Source: Escherichia phage ECP2303. From it: a stretch of 64,000 bases of DNA. The notes beneath the pieces are model-generated. The model worked only from the letters and a program-made list of their open reading frames with translations, made no database searches and was not told the DNA's origin. The DNA lies in sequence record PP261279.1. One strand, given 5' to 3'. How positions within the stretch are numbered: position 1 is the first letter of the stretch; each line of letters opens with the position of its first letter. The translations under genes and the position numbers were made by a program. This document shows positions 52,366 to 57,222 of this stretch, piece by piece.

Positions 52366-52644
52366 ATGAGCTGCGAAAAATCTTTTTTCATCATCATTTA
52401 CGGCAAGGATAACTGCCCACATTGTGTAAGAGCAAAAGAATTTGCAGTCAGCAAAGGCATACCTTTCGTATACAAGACGCTAGGTGAGGGATACACAAAA
52501 GAAGAGCTTATCGAGAAGTGTAGCCCATTTGTTCCCAGAACGTTGCCTCAGATCTTCTTGGAAAGCAACCTTGACAGTATCCACATAGGTGGTGCTGACG
52601 ATTTCATCTCTTTTGTTAAGAATGGTTTTGGAGAGAAAAAGTGA
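52366..52644 (+). CDS. glutaredoxin-like protein
   Basis: CPHC active site (KDNCPHCVRAKEF); 92 aa between nrdB and nrdD. Confidence 0.7.
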   Translation: MSCEKSFFIIIYGKDNCPHCVRAKEFAVSKGIPFVYKTLGEGYTKEELIEKCSPFVPRTLPQIFLESNLDSIHIGGADDFISFVKNGFGEKK

Positions 52645-54761
52645 AAGTTGTAAAACGGGACGGTAGAGAAGAGTTTTATAACGGAATTAAGGTGATCAAG
52701 GCGGCAGAGTCCGCCTTACTTGAGTCTGGACATACTGAAGAAGAAGCTTACCGGATTGCCTGTGCGGTTAATGAAGTTGTTGCCAACAATCTGCCAACCG
52801 ACCAGTGCACGATCTCTGTAAAAAATATCCATATCCTTGTTGAAGATGCTCTTATGGATATGGGTTTAAAATGTGCAGCCAGAGAATACATCCAGTATAG
52901 ACAGACAAGAGATAATAACAGAGAGGCAGGTGGAAAACTGCTTGCAGATATTAGTGGCTTCTTGGATCGTACTTGTGATGAATTTACAAAAGAAAACGCA
53001 AATAAGCCTACTAATCATGTACACACTCATCGTGACCTGCTTGCAGGTATCCTTAGCAAACACCTTGCATCAACACAGATCCTGCCAGATCGTGTCTCAG
53101 AAGAGCACAACAAGGGCTTCATCCATGTGCATGATCTTGACTACTTGATCAGCCCGTTAACAAACTGTTGTTTGGTGAATTATCCGGATATGCTGGAAAA
53201 CGGATTCAACATTGGCAACGCCCATGTCAGTAAGCCGAAGTCAATAGGGGTTGCAACAACAATCCTTAGCCAAATCTCTAGTGCAGTAGCTAGTGCTCAA
53301 TATGGCGGTCAGACCATGAGCCATATTGATCATTATCTGGCACAGTATGCTGAAGCAACCTATGAGAAGAACCTTAAATTTTGTCAGGAACATTGGTTGC
53401 CAGATGCTGAGACTGTTGCAATGCAAATGACAGATAAAGACGTGTTTGATAGTATGCAAACTTTGCTCTACCAAATCAATACGTTAACTTCTGTCAACGG
53501 GCAAACTCCATTCATCACACTAAGTTTAGGGCTGGATACCTCGGTCTTTGGTAGAATGATTACCAAAAACTACTTGAAAGTTCACAAAATGGGTCTCGGT
53601 GAAGAACGGATCACACCTGTGTTCCCTAAAGTGCTGTTCTTCTTAGAGGAGGGTGTCAACATGAACCCTGGGGATCCTAACTATGATTTGAAACGATTGG
53701 CATTAGAATGCTCTGCAGAGCGGATTTATCCTGACTTTGTTTCTGTTCCGCTAAATCGTAAAGTGACAGGTTCAACAGACGGCAAAGTAACAAGCATGGG
53801 ATGTAGGTCGTTCCTTGGAAAATACGTTACACCGGAGGGTGATGAAAAATACCTTGGCAGATTCAACTTGGGTGTTGTTAGCCTTAACCTACCAATGATT
53901 GCGGCAAAAGCTAAGACGGAAGGTATTGATTTCTTTGCAGTTCTTGACGAATACTTGGATCTTGCATACGAGGCTCACCTTGTAAGGGTTAACCGTCTAA
54001 AAGGAACAAAGGCAGGGCAGAACCCTATCATGTGGTGTGAAGGAGCTCTTGCTCGCCTGGATCCTGAAGAGAGTATCGATAAACTCTTCTATGACGGGTA
54101 CGCTTCCATCAGTATTGGGTATATTGGTGTGTATGAAACCTGTCAGATTTTGGGTAGAGAGGGTGACAAGGCTTTAGCTCTTGAAATCCTTCAGCACATG
54201 AGAGATGCTTGTGAGCGATACAAGAAGGAAAGTAGACTAGCATTTAGCTTGTACGGCACTCCTTCTGAGAGTCTATGCTATAAAGCTGCAACCTGTCTGG
54301 ATCGTGAATATCCGGAAGTGTTGAAGCACGAGCATGAATATCTCACCAACAGTTTCCATCAGCCAGTATGGATAAATAGCTCCCCTTTTGATAAGTGGGA
54401 GTATGAGGAAGGTTTTGCTATGATCTCCTCCGGTGGCAACATCGGATACGTAGAGACACCTAACCTGAAAAACAACCTGGATGCTTTAGAGGCTCTTGTT
54501 GACTTCGGGTATAAACATATTATGTATTTTGGTATTAACCAACCTGTGGATAAATGTCTCAAGTGTGGTTTCTCTGGTGAGTTCAGTGCAACAGCTAAAG
54601 GCTTTGTATGCCCAGAGTGTGGAAACCATGAAGAGGGAACGATCAGTGTAATTCGACGTGTGTCTGGATACCTTTCCAGTCCTAACTCCCGTCCTTACAA
54701 TAAAGGTAAGCAAGCGGAAGTTATCGAGCGAGTTAAGCACTATGGAAGTTGTAGTTGCTGA
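52641..54761 (+). CDS. nrdD: anaerobic ribonucleotide reductase (class III)
   Basis: C-terminal CLKCGFSGE...CPECG zinc site and glycyl-radical motif RVSGYL; 706 aa. Confidence 0.9.
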   Translation: MKVVKRDGREEFYNGIKVIKAAESALLESGHTEEEAYRIACAVNEVVANNLPTDQCTISVKNIHILVEDALMDMGLKCAAREYIQYRQTRDNNREAGGKLLADISGFLDRTCDEFTKENANKPTNHVHTHRDLLAGILSKHLASTQILPDRVSEEHNKGFIHVHDLDYLISPLTNCCLVNYPDMLENGFNIGNAHVSKPKSIGVATTILSQISSAVASAQYGGQTMSHIDHYLAQYAEATYEKNLKFCQEHWLPDAETVAMQMTDKDVFDSMQTLLYQINTLTSVNGQTPFITLSLGLDTSVFGRMITKNYLKVHKMGLGEERITPVFPKVLFFLEEGVNMNPGDPNYDLKRLALECSAERIYPDFVSVPLNRKVTGSTDGKVTSMGCRSFLGKYVTPEGDEKYLGRFNLGVVSLNLPMIAAKAKTEGIDFFAVLDEYLDLAYEAHLVRVNRLKGTKAGQNPIMWCEGALARLDPEESIDKLFYDGYASISIGYIGVYETCQILGREGDKALALEILQHMRDACERYKKESRLAFSLYGTPSESLCYKAATCLDREYPEVLKHEHEYLTNSFHQPVWINSSPFDKWEYEEGFAMISSGGNIGYVETPNLKNNLDALEALVDFGYKHIMYFGINQPVDKCLKCGFSGEFSATAKGFVCPECGNHEEGTISVIRRVSGYLSSPNSRPYNKGKQAEVIERVKHYGSCSC

Positions 54762-54764
54762 TAC

Positions 54765-54794
54765 TTGACAAAAGCCACAAGGATGTGGCATATT
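54765..54794 (+). promoter_or_regulatory. sigma70-type promoter with palindrome in the spacer
   Basis: TTGACA, 18-nt spacer containing CCACAAGGATGTGG, then CATATT. Confidence 0.35.
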
Positions 54795-54824
54795 ATTGGC
54801 ACACAGTGAGCTAGGAGGTACAGT

Positions 54825-54941
54825 ATGTCTAAAGGTATTTATAAAATTTGCAAGTGTGGTTGTCGTTGTAATCTTCGGTGGTGCAAGGCATTAGACGATT
54901 TTATTTGGCATTGCCCTAAATGCGATGCGGAGTACTTATAA
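54825..54941 (+). CDS. small Cys-rich zinc-ribbon protein (38 aa)
   Basis: ATG with strong RBS TAGGAGGT; CKCGCRC...CPKCD pattern; below the ORF-track size cutoff. Confidence 0.4.
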   Translation: MSKGIYKICKCGCRCNLRWCKALDDFIWHCPKCDAEYL

Positions 54942-55092
54942 GCATAAGGGGTCGAAATGCGGAAATCTATCAAGAAAATCAAGATAAAATTGTTAGCACT
55001 GAAGCGTAAGTATAAAAAGTTATACGGCTTCATCAAATGGACTTTTATAGGTTTATCTTGAATAGAAGCACACCACAGAAGAGAGGTTCCTT

Positions 55093-55329
55093 ATGATAGG
55101 TGTCTGTGTAAAAGCTAACAGATGGTTTACATTCGGTAAGGATTACGAAATTATCTTTCATTCGGACAGAGCCACAACAGTAGAAAGCGATGATGGGTGC
55201 CACTGGTTCGTTAGTTACCATGGTGATGGGTATTATAGATCTACTGATTCCAGAGGGGAAGAAGCTGTTTTCTTGGATAGAGCTTATTGTGGGCCTGAAT
55301 ATCCTTACCTAAAAGAGGATAAGGAATGA
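55093..55329 (+). CDS. hypothetical protein
   Basis: 78-aa ORF with AGAGAGG RBS, coupled to nrdG. Confidence 0.4.
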   Translation: MIGVCVKANRWFTFGKDYEIIFHSDRATTVESDDGCHWFVSYHGDGYYRSTDSRGEEAVFLDRAYCGPEYPYLKEDKE

Positions 55330-55799
55330 ATGTTGTTAATATTATAGAGTGTAGCATGGTTGACGGCCCAGGCATTAGGACAACGGTGTTCTGTTCTGGT
55401 TGCCCACATCACTGCGTCGGTTGCCAAAACAAAAGTGTTTGGTCGCCAGCTAAAGGGGAACCGTTAACAAATGACACTATTGAGAGTATACTTCACTCTA
55501 TAGAGCCGAAACACATTACTGGCGTTACATTATGCGGTGGCGAACCTTTAGCGCCTTACAATATTGAGGGTATGTACTCGATCATTCGCGCTATCCGTGA
55601 ACACTTCGGCAACACAAAAACTATCTGGGTGTACACAGGGTATTTGTTTGAAGAGGTTCCCGATTACATTAAAGATAGTGTCGATTACATTATGGATGGT
55701 AAGTACGAAAAAGATAACCCAACCAAAAAACCCTTCAGAGGTAGTGATAACCAAAGAATGTTTAAAAAGGTAGCAGGTGGTTGGGTTCAGGTTGACTAA
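55326..55799 (+). CDS. nrdG: anaerobic ribonucleotide reductase activating protein (radical SAM)
   Basis: CSGCPHHCVGC cluster and GGEPL motif; 157 aa. Confidence 0.85.
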   Translation: MNVVNIIECSMVDGPGIRTTVFCSGCPHHCVGCQNKSVWSPAKGEPLTNDTIESILHSIEPKHITGVTLCGGEPLAPYNIEGMYSIIRAIREHFGNTKTIWVYTGYLFEEVPDYIKDSVDYIMDGKYEKDNPTKKPFRGSDNQRMFKKVAGGWVQVD

Positions 55800-55802
55800 T
55801 TG

Positions 55803-55832
55803 TTGACAAAGTTTTGTTAAGTTGGTTATAAT
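55803..55832 (+). promoter_or_regulatory. consensus sigma70 promoter
   Basis: TTGACA, 18-nt spacer, TATAAT. Confidence 0.55.
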
Positions 55833-55861
55833 TAGCGTAATGAAAGCAGAGGAGGTGCCAA

Positions 55862-55975
55862 ATGGCTAAAAAAGCCTTGAAGAAGGCGTACAAGAAAGAG
55901 ATTGCGCTTGAGCTTAAGAAAAAACACAAGCGTGAAAAGAAACATCATGAAGATGAAGAGGGGGTGCAACAGTGA
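55862..55975 (+). CDS. small lysine-rich basic protein (37 aa)
   Basis: ATG with AGGAGGTG RBS 30 nt downstream of the consensus promoter; MAKKALKKAYKKEIALELKKKHKREKK...; stop overlaps the next GTG start. Confidence 0.35.
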   Translation: MAKKALKKAYKKEIALELKKKHKREKKHHEDEEGVQQ

Positions 55976-56322
55976 CACAAGAACGTATCGATTTGGCTAA
56001 TAAGTTTGTAGACCTCATTTTGCCACGGTTAGTTACTCAACATGCAGATGCTATTTCTACTAATCTTGATGGCTTACGCCTAATGCTGAATCGCACAGAT
56101 GACCCTCGTATTCGGGCTGATTTAGAAGCCTCTGCCAACAAACTGGAAAAGTTCTTGCAAGTAGACACGCAAGAAGCCTTGCACAAGATTATGGTGGAAG
56201 GTTTCTCTAAAGAATTTACCATTAAAGAGCTTAAGGAGCTGATCCACCAAGAAGAGATGAATATCCGAGTTCAGGCTGTTGCAAGCAGCATGGAAGCGGC
56301 TATTGAAAAACTGTTGCAGTAA
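55972..56322 (+). CDS. hypothetical protein
   Basis: 116-aa helical acidic ORF. Confidence 0.4.
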   Translation: MTQERIDLANKFVDLILPRLVTQHADAISTNLDGLRLMLNRTDDPRIRADLEASANKLEKFLQVDTQEALHKIMVEGFSKEFTIKELKELIHQEEMNIRVQAVASSMEAAIEKLLQ

Positions 56323-56360
56323 AAGTACTTGGCACATCTCAATCTGAAAGGAGTCCCAAC

Positions 56361-57149
56361 ATGGGTCGAGCTAAAGAAACAAAACGCATGCGTGATGAAG
56401 CTAGAGAGGCTCGCAAATCTGATCGCCTGCGTAAGGCTGCTGAGAAATTTGCTGACGAAAGAGAGCACACCGCTCCAGCTCTCCGACCAATGAATAAGAA
56501 GCAGCAAAAGTATCTTGATTATCTAGGGTCACGTAAGATTATTATTGTAAACGGTGTGTTTGGATCCGGTAAGACATTTATGGCATCTGCATATGCAGGT
56601 GATCTTCTGCGTAAGAACGAGATTGATAAGATCATTGTTGCACGTCCTTACGTCCAGACAGGAAAGACTTCAGGATTTAAACCTGGAAATGCAATGCAGA
56701 AACTGTGGCCCTATCTTAGAAGCATGATGGACACGATTTGTCGTCGTGTTGGCAAAGGTGCTTTTGCAGCAATGCTTGGGGACGGTCAGAACAGCCGTAT
56801 CGAGATTTGTGAGGTTGAAAGCATTCGTGGTCGTAGTTTTGATGAACGATGCTTTGTCCTTATTGATGAAGCACAGCAAACTAACCCTGAAGAAATGTTG
56901 TCAATTATCACAAGGATCTCTGATCAGGCCACCCTTGTAATTATGGGTGATAATAGCCAACGTGACATCCCTGGTAAATCTGGCCTTGCATGGGTGACAG
57001 ATTTCTTTACTCGCCATCCAGATCCTGATGTTGGAATGATTAGCTTTGATAGTCCAGACGATGTCGTTCGTTCCGGGTTAGGCCGTCAGATTGCACTCAA
57101 TCTTATTGAGGATCGTGCAAATCATATTTGGACTCCTGTTTCCGAGTAA
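56361..57149 (+). CDS. phoH: PhoH-like ATPase
   Basis: Walker A GVFGSGKTF and PhoH-type core; 262 aa. Confidence 0.85.
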   Translation: MGRAKETKRMRDEAREARKSDRLRKAAEKFADEREHTAPALRPMNKKQQKYLDYLGSRKIIIVNGVFGSGKTFMASAYAGDLLRKNEIDKIIVARPYVQTGKTSGFKPGNAMQKLWPYLRSMMDTICRRVGKGAFAAMLGDGQNSRIEICEVESIRGRSFDERCFVLIDEAQQTNPEEMLSIITRISDQATLVIMGDNSQRDIPGKSGLAWVTDFFTRHPDPDVGMISFDSPDDVVRSGLGRQIALNLIEDRANHIWTPVSE

Positions 57150-57155
57150 TACAGA

Positions 57156-57178
57156 AGGGTGGTTATTCCACCCTTAAA
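57156..57178 (+). terminator. Rho-independent terminator (weak U-tract)
   Basis: AGGGTGG-uuauu-CCACCCT followed by TAAATATCT. Confidence 0.45.
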
Positions 57179-57193
57179 TATCTAAAACAGTTG

Positions 57194-57222
57194 TTGACAA
57201 ACAGGTGAGCTTTAGATATTAT
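57194..57222 (+). promoter_or_regulatory. sigma70-type promoter
   Basis: TTGACA, 17-nt spacer, TATTAT. Confidence 0.5.

What the first reader, a model, noticed from the sequence alone, without database searches (positions are those of the whole stretch)
54825..55975. Two unannotated mini-proteins behind strong promoters around nrdG
A 38-aa Cys4 zinc-ribbon protein (54825-54941) and a 37-aa lysine-rich protein (55863-55976 region, directly after a perfect TTGACA-N18-TATAAT promoter) both have strong Shine-Dalgarno sequences but fall below the ORF-track cutoff. Small zinc-ribbon and basic proteins in phage early or middle regions are frequent host-takeover or anti-defence factors.
Basis: seen in the sequence. 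Interest (0 to 1): 0.35.

Follow-up and report, generated by a model that had tools for sequence, protein, structure and literature searches.

The report
Two conserved phage mini-protein genes
Both tiny ORFs are real, strongly conserved genes of rV5-like coliphages, a 38-residue seven-cysteine zinc-ribbon protein and a 37-residue basic peptide; both are already catalogued elsewhere as hypothetical proteins and their functions are still unknown, so the finding is sound but fairly ordinary.

Summary
The window is a Vequintavirus (rV5-like), 100% identical to Escherichia phage ECP2309. Both ORFs sit exactly where stated, each with a near-ideal Shine-Dalgarno sequence and a sigma-70-type promoter. 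Both evolve as proteins: dN/dS is 0.09 and 0.05 in frame, against 0.9-2.5 in the wrong frames.

"Unannotated" is only partly true. ORF-D (37 aa) is annotated in ECP2309 itself, and its promoter is rV5's published P118. ORF-A (38 aa) is annotated in LL12, MaxTheCat and others. Both have PHROG families.

ORF-A has seven invariant cysteines, not four, and a predicted zinc-ribbon fold. Its family is phage-only and very narrow. It lies between nrdD and nrdG and is translationally coupled to nrdG in the compact arrangement. However, sister genera have nrdD-nrdG without it, and some K1E-like podoviruses carry it coupled to DNA ligase. It is therefore a mobile autonomous module, not an RNR subunit.

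ORF-D is conserved across Vequintavirinae. It is always the cistron just upstream of an acidic four-helix protein (ORF-E), and in five of six lineages the two genes overlap. They are probably partners.

No tool result gives a function for either protein. A role in host takeover or anti-defence is neither supported nor excluded.

The parts
54765..54794 (+). Sigma-70-type promoter-like site for ORF-A: TTGACA-N18-CATATT with an extended -10 TG, directly after the nrdD stop codon
   Evidence: 10 of 12 matches. Conserved in 7 of 8 aligned relatives. In WalterGehring a homing-endonuclease gene is inserted at the -10 element. No expression data exist.
54774..54789 (.). Conserved hairpin GCCACA-AGGA-TGTGGC inside the promoter spacer; possibly a weak nrdD terminator or an operator
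   Evidence: terminator-like on both strands. Conserved and retained upstream of the inserted endonuclease gene. Its function is inferred only.
54813..54819 (+). Shine-Dalgarno AGGAGGT, 5 nt before the ORF-A ATG
   Evidence: Read. Conserved. An SD is kept even where the upstream region has been replaced (TP14, L009, WalterGehring).
54825..54941 (+). ORF-A: a 38-aa (4.5 kDa) zinc-ribbon mini-protein with seven cysteines, MSKGIYKICKCGCRCNLRWCKALDDFIWHCPKCDAEYL (phrog_20137)
   Evidence: intact in about 120 phage records; dN/dS 0.09; all 7 Cys codons switch TGT/TGC without replacement; three beta-strands, pLDDT 66; Rpb9-type zinc ribbon, TM 0.74.
54957..55061 (+). ORF-B: 34-aa Lys-rich ORF with a hydrophobic tail. 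It belongs to the 'type 1' nrdG cassette and its coding status is uncertain.
   Evidence: annotated in LL12, MaxTheCat and rV5. It has no PHROG match. Only 8 sites vary and they show no codon-position bias (p = 0.53). It is absent from Murica, FV3 and TP14.
55093..55329 (+). ORF-C: 78-aa hypothetical protein (phrog_3249) whose stop overlaps the nrdG start (ATGA). It belongs to the same optional cassette as ORF-B.
55326..55799 (+). nrdG, the activase of the anaerobic ribonucleotide reductase. It is the downstream gene of the unit that ORF-A heads.
   Evidence: In the Murica/FV3/TP14/L009/L018/L032 arrangement the ORF-A stop overlaps the nrdG ATG.
55803..55832 (+). Perfect sigma-70 promoter TTGACA-N18-TATAAT (rV5 'P118')
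   Evidence: the only perfect match in the window; 0.08 expected; hexamers invariant, spacer variable; already annotated and published for rV5.
55850..55857 (+). Shine-Dalgarno AGGAGGTG, 5 nt before the ORF-D ATG
   Evidence: Read. Invariant.
55862..55975 (+). ORF-D: 37-aa basic peptide MAKKALKKAYKKEIALELKKKHKREKKHHEDEEGVQQ (phrog_7670). It is the first cistron of the P118 operon.
   Evidence: dN/dS 0.05; 29 clusters across Vequintavirinae with a conserved N-terminal motif; first 27 aa carry net +8 to +10, followed by an acidic tail.
55972..56322 (+). ORF-E: 116-aa acidic four-helix protein (phrog_7650). Its GTG start overlaps the ORF-D stop (GTGA). It is the constant downstream neighbour of ORF-D.
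   Evidence: pLDDT 91; no significant fold match.
56361..57149 (+). phoH-like ATPase gene, the distal gene of the ORF-D/ORF-E operon
   Evidence: gene order conserved across genera.

Best explanation
Both ORFs are genuine, translated phage genes, but they are two different kinds of thing.

ORF-A encodes a 4.5-kDa metal-binding zinc-ribbon mini-protein with seven invariant cysteines. It is a lineage-specific accessory gene inserted between nrdD and nrdG. Host sigma-70 RNA polymerase would transcribe it from a promoter that starts 4 nt after the nrdD stop codon, or by read-through from a homing-endonuclease gene where one has landed there. It heads the unit that contains nrdG. It behaves as a self-contained portable module. 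The same gene, bounded almost exactly by its start and stop codons, occurs in K1E-like podoviruses, where it is translationally coupled to DNA ligase. Sister genera have nrdD-nrdG without it. The most likely way it works (inferred, not shown) is as a small rigid metal-stabilised binding module that acts stoichiometrically on a target common to E. coli phages, either a host factor or a nucleic acid. It is unlikely to be a subunit of the anaerobic ribonucleotide reductase.

ORF-D encodes a basic helical peptide with a conserved N-terminal motif, M-[AS]-K-K-x-L-[KR]-K-A-Y-x-K-E-[IL]-A, followed by an acidic tail. It is the first cistron of a promoter-driven operon conserved across Vequintavirinae. 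In five of six lineages its stop overlaps the start of the acidic four-helix protein ORF-E. Most likely (inferred) the two are made in fixed proportion and work together as a complex.
For: Shown. The ORFs, SDs and promoters are present. Purifying selection is specific to the called frames. ORF-A is intact in about 120 phage records and all 7 cysteines are invariant with synonymous codon switching. The model has three beta-strands and its best fold matches are Rpb9-type zinc ribbons and the small zinc-finger protein ZifS. ORF-A overlaps the nrdG start in Murica, FV3, TP14, L009, L018 and L032. ORF-A occurs in Vectrevirus ACG-C91 and in four more 44-45-kb contigs, between the DUF3310 kinase and DNA ligase, overlapping the ligase start. 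K1E has an unrelated CxxC...CxxC 38-mer in the same slot. PVP-SE1 has overlapping nrdD and nrdG and no ORF-A. The family is phage-only: an exhaustive HMM search of 1.84 billion representatives found only its own members, and a DNA-level scan of 185,579 bacterial and archaeal genomes found none. ORF-D homologues form 29 clusters with a conserved N-terminus. The ORF-D/ORF-E adjacency holds in Vequintavirus, Mydovirus, Henunavirus, Seunavirus and two further lineages. The genes overlap in 5 of 6 and are 8 nt apart in the sixth. The basic-ORF-D, acidic-ORF-E charge pattern is conserved.
Against: There are no expression, metal-binding or interaction data for either protein. The rV5 paper gives only predicted promoters and virion mass spectrometry. 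The ORF-A model has modest confidence (pLDDT 66) and no fold-search E-value is significant. In the window's 38-aa form the first knuckle is CxC rather than the canonical CxxC. In every myovirus lineage ORF-A is next to nrdG, which still allows an RNR-related role. Charge complementarity and translational coupling are only weak evidence that ORF-D and ORF-E form a complex. ORF-E has no recognisable fold relative that would suggest an activity.
Confidence: 0.6

Rival explanations
1. ORF-A is an accessory of the anaerobic ribonucleotide reductase. For example, it could be a rubredoxin-like electron donor or metallochaperone for the NrdG [4Fe-4S] activase, made in fixed ratio with NrdG.
For: ORF-A always lies between nrdD and nrdG in rV5-like genomes. 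It is translationally coupled to nrdG in six arrangements. It is cysteine-rich. Some records and phrog_20137 label it 'ribonucleotide reductase'.
Against: Co-occurrence fails in both directions. PVP-SE1 has overlapping nrdD-nrdG and no ORF-A. The Vectrevirus loci examined show it between a DUF3310 kinase and DNA ligase, with no nrd gene in the regions seen. It has no similarity to NrdD beyond a CPEC knuckle. It has no Pfam, NCBIfam or rubredoxin match. The RNR label traces to naming by adjacency.
Confidence: 0.15
2. ORF-A is specifically an anti-defence or anti-restriction factor of the small zinc-ribbon type, acting like the Lar family.
For: It is small, carried only by phages, exchanged horizontally, and patchy in distribution. 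It replaces another zinc ribbon in the same slot. The K1E slot-mate has sub-threshold Lar-family and other zinc-ribbon hits. A Lar-family protein appears among weak BFVD fold matches (rank 14, E = 0.68).
Against: ORF-A itself matches no Lar, anti-defence or PADLOC model. The fold matches are generic zinc ribbons. Nothing links it to any particular defence system.
Confidence: 0.15
3. ORF-A persists and looks unusually conserved mainly because it hitchhikes with homing endonucleases. It flanks a homing hot-spot and is repeatedly co-converted between phages, with little function of its own.
For: Three unrelated endonuclease-type genes occupy the nrdD/ORF-A spacer: HNH_3 in L009, T5orf172/MUG113 in TP14, and the WalterGehring endonuclease gene. 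In L009 the ORF-A core is the only segment of 3.4 kb that still matches known phages by megablast, at 87-90% nucleotide identity.
Against: Co-conversion does not explain protein-level purifying selection with abundant synonymous change (pS 0.29-0.45 against pN 0.03-0.07). It does not explain seven invariant cysteines. It does not explain retention in most genomes without any adjacent endonuclease gene, nor in the Vectrevirus slot.
Confidence: 0.07
4. ORF-D is only a translated leader whose role is to deliver ribosomes to the weak GTG start of ORF-E. The peptide itself would have no function.
For: The stop and start overlap (GTGA). ORF-E's SD-like GAGGGGG lies inside the 3' end of ORF-D. The two genes are coupled in all six lineages examined.
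Against: The peptide sequence is under strong selection (dN/dS 0.05). Its N-terminal motif is about 70% conserved across genera in which ORF-E is only 22-29% identical. In most other genera ORF-E starts with ATG, yet ORF-D is still kept.
Confidence: 0.08

Closest known systems
phrog_20137 and phrog_7670 (PHROGs families of uncharacterised phage proteins), with their GenBank members, e.g. LL12 AXC42785.1/AXC42789.1, MaxTheCat QXV82924.1/QXV82920.1, rV5 gp113
   Same: Full-length matches at E = 4e-31 (ORF-A) and 2e-20 (ORF-D). Same genes, same positions.
   Different: Nothing differs; these are the same families. The 'ribonucleotide reductase' label on phrog_20137 has no sequence support.
Zinc-ribbon domains, e.g. 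the Rpb9/TFS-type ribbons of RNA polymerase subunits, the ribosomal ribbons eL43 and eL40, and the small zinc-finger protein ZifS (PDB 8yoz)
   Same: A predicted three-stranded sheet with a C-P-x-C knuckle between strands 2 and 3. TM 0.74 and rmsd 1.1 A over 34 columns to Rpb9. Knuckle motifs resemble eL43 'IWHCPKCG' and eL40 'KICRDCG'.
   Different: There is no significant sequence or fold E-value. ORF-A has seven invariant cysteines instead of four. The first knuckle is CxCxCxC in the window and CxxCxCxC in longer variants, and there is an extra Cys at the end of strand 1. This implies a second metal site or another use of three cysteines.
Lar-family restriction alleviation proteins (NCBIfam TIGR03655), small phage or prophage zinc ribbons
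   Same: Similar size class, a stand-alone zinc ribbon, phage-borne, accessory.
   Different: ORF-A does not match the family model. Only the unrelated K1E slot-mate gives a sub-threshold hit (20.7 bits against a 39.6 cut-off).
The K1E 38-aa zinc ribbon AQY55013.1 (MTCPNCGSEETEHVVMSDTYHFYFCHSCDTTIEEEEAV)
   Same: Same length and the same genomic slot (nucleotide kinase, then the mini-gene, then DNA ligase) as the ORF-A copy in ACG-C91, with the same tight packing against the ligase gene.
   Different: Not homologous (hhalign probability 36% over 8 columns). It is a canonical CxxC-x17-CxxC ribbon with 4 Cys.
NrdD C-terminal zinc ribbon and NrdG (class III RNR)
   Same: Adjacent genes. NrdD also ends in a CxxC...CPEC ribbon.
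   Different: No alignment beyond the 4-residue CPEC knuckle. The distributions are independent of each other.

Membership tests
phrog_20137 (ORF-A) | Full-length match to the family HMM | tested here: met
   E = 4.3e-31, residues 1-38 on profile positions 1-38 of 38. The 54-aa variant also matches, E = 7.8e-22.
phrog_7670 (ORF-D) | Full-length match to the family HMM | tested here: met
   E = 2e-20. The Mydo homologue matches at E = 2.1e-27 over positions 1-46 of 46.
Zinc-ribbon fold | Three-stranded antiparallel beta-sheet | tested here: met
   AF2 predicts strands at 16-20, 25-30 and 35-37 (pLDDT 66, so moderate confidence). The best PDB matches are zinc ribbons with TM 0.68-0.74.
Zinc-ribbon fold | Two CxxC-type zinc knuckles | tested here: inconclusive
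   The second knuckle, C30-P-K-C33, is canonical. The first is CxxC only in the 41-54-aa variants and is CxC in the window's 38-aa form.
Zinc-ribbon fold | Binds one Zn through four Cys | not testable with these tools
   Needs metal analysis of purified protein. Seven invariant Cys suggest more than one site.
Class III ribonucleotide reductase components (NrdD/NrdG) | Sequence membership: NRDD/Gly_radical or Radical_SAM/Fer4_12 domains | tested here: not met
   No Pfam or NCBIfam hit. BLASTP against the window's NrdD aligns only 'CPEC'.
Class III ribonucleotide reductase components (NrdD/NrdG) | Strict co-occurrence with nrdD and nrdG | tested here: not met
   Absent from PVP-SE1, where nrdD and nrdG overlap. 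Present in Vectrevirus between a kinase and DNA ligase.
Lar-family restriction alleviation protein (TIGR03655) | Match to the family model above its cut-off | tested here: not met
   ORF-A has no NCBIfam hit at E <= 1.
Rubredoxin | Match to a rubredoxin model; two CxxCG knuckles about 30 residues apart | tested here: not met
   No Pfam or NCBIfam rubredoxin hit for ORF-A. The knuckle spacing and the CxCxCxC motif differ.
Known anti-phage defence components (PADLOC-DB) | Match to any model | tested here: not met
   No hit for ORF-A or ORF-D.
Known RNA families (Rfam 15) | Covariance-model match in 54600-56400 | tested here: not met
   No match at E <= 1. The conservation is therefore not explained by a known RNA element.

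The most novel reading that the evidence does not exclude
ORF-A's seven invariant cysteines build a two-metal or Fe-S centre on a zinc-ribbon scaffold. This would define a new class of mobile mini-metalloprotein that coliphages exchange as a gene-sized cassette and use to neutralise a host factor. The unrelated zinc ribbon in the same K1E slot would be a functional analogue, making this an interchangeable zinc-ribbon effector slot. Separately, ORF-D/ORF-E could be an uncharacterised two-component module that is core to Vequintavirinae.
Probability: 0.12. Interest if true: 0.55.

Novelty: new member of a known kind. Interest (0 to 1): 0.25.

Why it matters
Small phage proteins are under-annotated, and several well-known host-takeover and anti-defence factors are of this size. 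Showing that these two are real, selected genes corrects some annotations. ECP2309 misses ORF-A and ORF-B. rV5 gp109 is called in the wrong frame. The 'ribonucleotide reductase' label on phrog_20137 is unfounded. The work also yields two well-defined candidates for experiment. One is a portable seven-cysteine zinc ribbon shared by unrelated coliphages. The other is a peptide/partner pair conserved across a whole subfamily of phages of therapeutic interest. Nothing here changes current understanding, and both families are already catalogued as hypothetical proteins.

Tried and rejected
1. tblastn of ORF-D against phages returned nothing because of the low-complexity filter. I replaced it with a DNA search, with ORF-E as an anchor, and with a profile search.
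I solved this by using an alignment headed by the 41-aa variant.
3. L019, a 44% 'relative' in a GC-rich bacterial contig, is a chance match in an implausible frame.
4. P0014, the only non-family hit of the exhaustive HMM search, is a repetitive junk translation.
5. The idea that ORF-A derives from the NrdD zinc ribbon is rejected.
6. Homology between ORF-A and the K1E slot-mate is rejected.
7. I suspected rV5's 2-bp deletion might frameshift ORF-A. It lies upstream of the ORF, so rV5 gp109 is simply a call in another frame.
8. Alma's 61-aa ORF-A and 45-aa ORF-D are single-base indels. Alma's nrdG alignment also carries a one-base gap. I treated all of these as sequencing errors and excluded Alma from the selection analysis.
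9. I predicted the ORF-E structure and searched its fold hoping for a functional handle on ORF-D. The model is confident but has no significant neighbour. PDB sequence searches for all three families were also empty.
10. Literature searches for expression data on rV5-like phages, for ZifS and for small zinc-ribbon phage proteins found nothing pertinent.
Full report
IDENTITY OF THE WINDOW. The region 54000-57200 is 100% identical to Escherichia phage ECP2309 (PP464953.1; Vequintavirus, rV5-like) and 93-99% identical to about 120 other records. On the + strand the local order is as follows:
- glutaredoxin, 52366-52644
- nrdD, 52641-54761
- a promoter-like site, 54765-54794
- ORF-A, 38 aa, 54825-54941
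- ORF-B, 34 aa, 54957-55061
- ORF-C, 78 aa, 55093-55329
- nrdG, 55326-55799
- a perfect promoter, 55803-55832
- ORF-D, 37 aa, 55862-55975
- ORF-E, 116 aa, with a GTG start at 55972 that overlaps the ORF-D stop
- phoH, 56361-57149

THE OBSERVATION. Each has an AGGAGGT-type Shine-Dalgarno sequence 5 nt before its ATG. The promoter ahead of ORF-D is TTGACA-N18-TATAAT. It is the only perfect match in 64 kb, with 0.08 expected from shuffles. Its two hexamers and the SD are invariant in ten vequintaviruses while the spacer varies. The promoter ahead of ORF-A is weaker: TTGACA-N18-CATATT with an extended -10 TG, 10 of 12 matches. A conserved hairpin lies in its spacer. An ORF of this size is not evidence in itself, since 92 ORFs of at least 20 aa overlap this 5.5 kb. 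I therefore tested for selection.

- **ORF-A:** across 13 distinct sequences, dN/dS is 0.10. Within the 38-aa set it is 0.09, against 0.92 and 1.44 in the other two frames, which also contain stops.
- **ORF-D:** across 9 distinct sequences, dN/dS is 0.05, against 2.4 and 2.5 in the other frames.
- **Codon position:** variable sites concentrate at third positions, 27 of 48 for ORF-A (p = 9e-4) and 14 of 18 for ORF-D (p = 1.4e-4).

No Rfam family matches the region. Both are therefore real protein-coding genes by evolutionary criteria.

WHAT NEEDS CORRECTING. 'Unannotated' holds only for ORF-A, and for ORF-B, in ECP2309. ORF-D is annotated there (WXX18411.1). LL12 and MaxTheCat annotate ORF-A, ORF-B and ORF-D. 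rV5 annotates ORF-D as gp113, and its promoter as P118, which also appears in the paper's Table S4 (PMC3606486). rV5's gp109 (75 aa) overlaps ORF-A in another frame. The 2-bp difference between rV5 and the window lies upstream of ORF-A, which is intact in rV5, so gp109 looks like a mis-call. Both proteins match PHROG families: phrog_20137 at E = 4e-31 and phrog_7670 at E = 2e-20. ORF-A is not 'Cys4'. It has seven cysteines.

ORF-A, ANATOMY. The family consensus is [K]-[IV]-C-K-(x)-C-G-C-x-C-N-L-R-W-C-K-x-L-D-D-F-I-W-[HY]-C-P-x-C-[DN]-x-E-Y-L. All seven cysteines are invariant in 19 protein variants. In the 14 nucleotide sequences examined, every one of the seven Cys codons switches between TGT and TGC and is never replaced. 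The known variants are:
- 38 aa (most vequintaviruses);
- 41 aa (TP14, CxxCxCxC);
- 53-54 aa, with a Lys/Glu-rich N-terminal tail (L009, L032 and metagenomic contigs);
- 36 aa (Vectrevirus).

AlphaFold2 on a 12-sequence alignment gives pLDDT 66 and three strands, at 16-20, 25-30 and 35-37, with the C30-P-K-C33 knuckle between strands 2 and 3. Foldseek's best PDB matches are Rpb9-type zinc ribbons (TM 0.74, rmsd 1.1 A over 34 columns) and the small zinc-finger protein ZifS. None has a significant E-value, as expected for 38 residues. In BFVD the only significant match is the family itself. Pfam, NCBIfam, PADLOC and PDB sequence searches give nothing. The fold class is therefore supported. The three extra invariant cysteines (C13, C15, C20 if C9/C11 plus C30/C33 bind the ribbon zinc) remain unexplained.

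ORF-A, DISTRIBUTION AND CONTEXT. tblastn finds an intact copy in 120 of 121 matching phage records, and the 121st is a truncated fragment. An exhaustive HMM search of 1.84 billion representative proteins returns only family members plus one spurious repeat protein. A DNA-level scan of 185,579 bacterial and archaeal genomes finds none. The family is therefore phage-only and very narrow.

Vequintaviruses have two arrangements. In the window type, ORF-A is followed by ORF-B, ORF-C and nrdG. In the Murica/FV3/TP14/L010/L014/L018 type, ORF-B and ORF-C are absent, most of nrdG is a different allele, and the ORF-A stop overlaps the nrdG ATG (CTATGA). The divergent 136-kb lineage represented by L009 and L032 shows the same overlap with nrdG. 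This would fit an RNR accessory, but two observations argue against it.
- Salmonella phage PVP-SE1 (Seunavirus, same subfamily) has overlapping nrdD and nrdG with nothing between them.
- The Vectrevirus ACG-C91, a 43.7-kb K1E-like podovirus, and four further 44-45-kb contigs carry an 82%-identical (nucleotide) copy between the DUF3310 nucleotide kinase and the ATP-dependent DNA ligase. Its stop overlaps the ligase ATG, and the flanks are unrelated to the vequintavirus flanks.

In K1E itself the same slot holds an unrelated 38-aa CxxC-x17-CxxC zinc ribbon. BLASTP of ORF-A against the window's NrdD aligns only the four-residue knuckle CPEC. The 'ribonucleotide reductase' name on the APECc02 RefSeq CDS, and hence on the PHROG, has no sequence basis.

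ORF-A, MOBILITY. The nrdD/ORF-A spacer is a landing site for at least three unrelated endonuclease-type genes: HNH_3 in L009, a T5orf172/MUG113 plus DUF723 gene in TP14, and a 330-aa putative homing endonuclease in WalterGehring. In WalterGehring the insertion is exactly at the -10 element. The -35 hexamer and the hairpin now precede the endonuclease gene, and ORF-A follows it with its own SD. In L009 the ORF-A core is the only part of 3.4 kb that megablast can still align to any sequenced phage, at 87-90% nucleotide identity. I infer that ORF-A is exchanged or co-converted between coliphage lineages as a near gene-sized unit. The abundant synonymous change and invariant cysteines show that the protein itself is selected.

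ORF-A, MOST LIKELY MECHANISM. The following are shown: a real gene, a conserved SD, a sigma-70-type promoter in most genomes, coupling to the downstream gene, a zinc-ribbon-like fold, portability, and independence from nrdDG. The rest is inferred. I think it is a metal-stabilised mini-domain that works by binding a target available in any E. coli infection, either a host protein or a nucleic acid. I put the RNR-accessory rival at about 0.15, a specifically anti-restriction or anti-defence role at about 0.15, and a pure hitch-hiker at about 0.07.

ORF-D. The 37-aa peptide has net charge +6: +10 over the first 27 residues, followed by an acidic tail. Using ORF-E as an anchor, I found homologues of ORF-D immediately upstream of ORF-E homologues in Proteus phage Mydo (46 aa), Erwinia phage Hena1 (49 aa), PVP-SE1 (46 aa) and two other lineages. 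A profile search gave 29 clusters, all on Vequintavirinae-sized genomes where the contig is long enough to tell. The N-terminus, MSKKtLRKAYqKELAlELRgKKRK, is conserved, with M1, L6, K8, A9, K12, E13, A15 and L18 invariant. The C-terminal tails are clade-specific, and the Vequintavirus form is the shortest. This motif is better conserved than ORF-E, which is 22-29% identical between genera.

The ORF-D stop overlaps the ORF-E start in five of six lineages and lies 8 nt upstream of it in PVP-SE1. The gene order D, E, (endolysin), phoH is conserved, after glutaredoxin or after nrdG. ORF-E is acidic in all lineages (pI 4.6-5.9). It models confidently as four helices (pLDDT 91) but has no significant structural or sequence relative.

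I infer that ORF-D and ORF-E are produced together and act together. The basic helix of ORF-D would either dock on ORF-E or bind nucleic acid. A pure 'coupling leader' role is unlikely given the selection on the peptide sequence.

NOVELTY AND SCORE. Both genes are already in databases as hypothetical proteins, and the P118 promoter is published. Neither family has a known function, and no tool result points to one. The most unusual features are ORF-A's seven invariant cysteines on a 38-residue ribbon, and its cassette-like presence in unrelated coliphages in a slot that otherwise holds a different zinc ribbon. That makes it a reasonable experimental target but not a surprise to a specialist. 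Interest is 0.25.

Noticed in passing
window 54957-55061: A third mini-ORF, ORF-B (34 aa, MRKSIKKIKIKLLALKRKYKKLYGFIKWTFIGLS, net charge +12, hydrophobic tail). It has no PHROG match, and too few substitutions exist to show coding selection (8 variable sites, 3/2/3 by codon position).
   Followed up: partly
window 54942-55690, compared with L005, L006, L007, L010, L014, L018: Vequintaviruses carry two alternative cassettes. One is ORF-B + ORF-C + nrdG allele 1. The other is nrdG allele 2 alone. Only the last ~110 nt of nrdG are shared at the DNA level. L018 encodes a mosaic NrdG.
   Followed up: partly
window 54762-54824; L007 379-1539; L009 2411-2920; L029 1000-1992: The nrdD/ORF-A spacer is a hot-spot for homing-endonuclease-type genes of three unrelated families. 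In WalterGehring the insertion is exactly at the -10 element of the ORF-A promoter, so the endonuclease gene inherits the -35 hexamer and the hairpin. nrdD itself is split or interrupted in FV3, WalterGehring and L032.
   Followed up: partly
window 54774-54789: A perfect 6-bp hairpin (GCCACA-AGGA-TGTGGC) sits inside the promoter spacer, 13 nt after the nrdD stop. It is conserved in relatives and scores as terminator-like on both strands. It could be a weak nrdD terminator overlapping the next promoter, or an operator.
   Followed up: no
L002 2259-2486 (rV5 gp109); L028 701-817 (APECc02 gp111): Two annotation problems in reference records. rV5 gp109 (75 aa) is called in a different frame over an intact ORF-A. 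APECc02 RefSeq names the 38-aa ORF-A 'ribonucleotide reductase', a label that phrog_20137 inherited.
   Followed up: yes
L013 2991-3107 (K1E) compared with L011 2989-3099 (ACG-C91): The slot between the nucleotide kinase and the DNA ligase of K1E-like podoviruses holds one of two non-homologous mini zinc ribbons of 36-38 aa, depending on the phage. ACG-C91's copy is unannotated in its RefSeq record.
   Followed up: partly
L008 (phage Alma) 1601-1786, 2103-2577, 2640-2777: Alma has single-base indels in ORF-A and ORF-D, and its nrdG alignment carries a one-base gap. These look like homopolymer sequencing errors, and they produce artefactual 61-aa and 45-aa 'proteins' that are now in protein databases (P0002, P0043).
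   Followed up: partly
P0013 (ENA contig, 1473 bp): A 62-aa protein that fuses ORF-A residues 1-20 to the C-terminal part of ORF-C (junction ...NLRWC|HWFVSYHG...). It is either a natural deletion variant or an assembly artefact.
   Followed up: no
(records MG0656xx): About 19 records named 'Campylobacter phage', with host Campylobacter jejuni, are 92-99% identical to E. coli rV5-like phages across this region. The names and hosts look doubtful.
   Followed up: no
L020 4241-4323 (Proteus phage Mydo): Upstream of the Mydo ORF-D homologue there is also a TTGACA...TATGAT promoter-like site, followed by a 7-bp-stem hairpin (CCTGCCG...CGGCAGG) in the leader. The promoter-first position of ORF-D may therefore be conserved beyond Vequintavirus.
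   Followed up: no
L022-L026, L020, L021: In the other Vequintavirinae genera the ORF-D/ORF-E pair is directly followed by the endolysin gene (identified as GH19 in L022-L026) and then phoH. In the window, phoH follows ORF-E directly and no endolysin is present.
   Followed up: no
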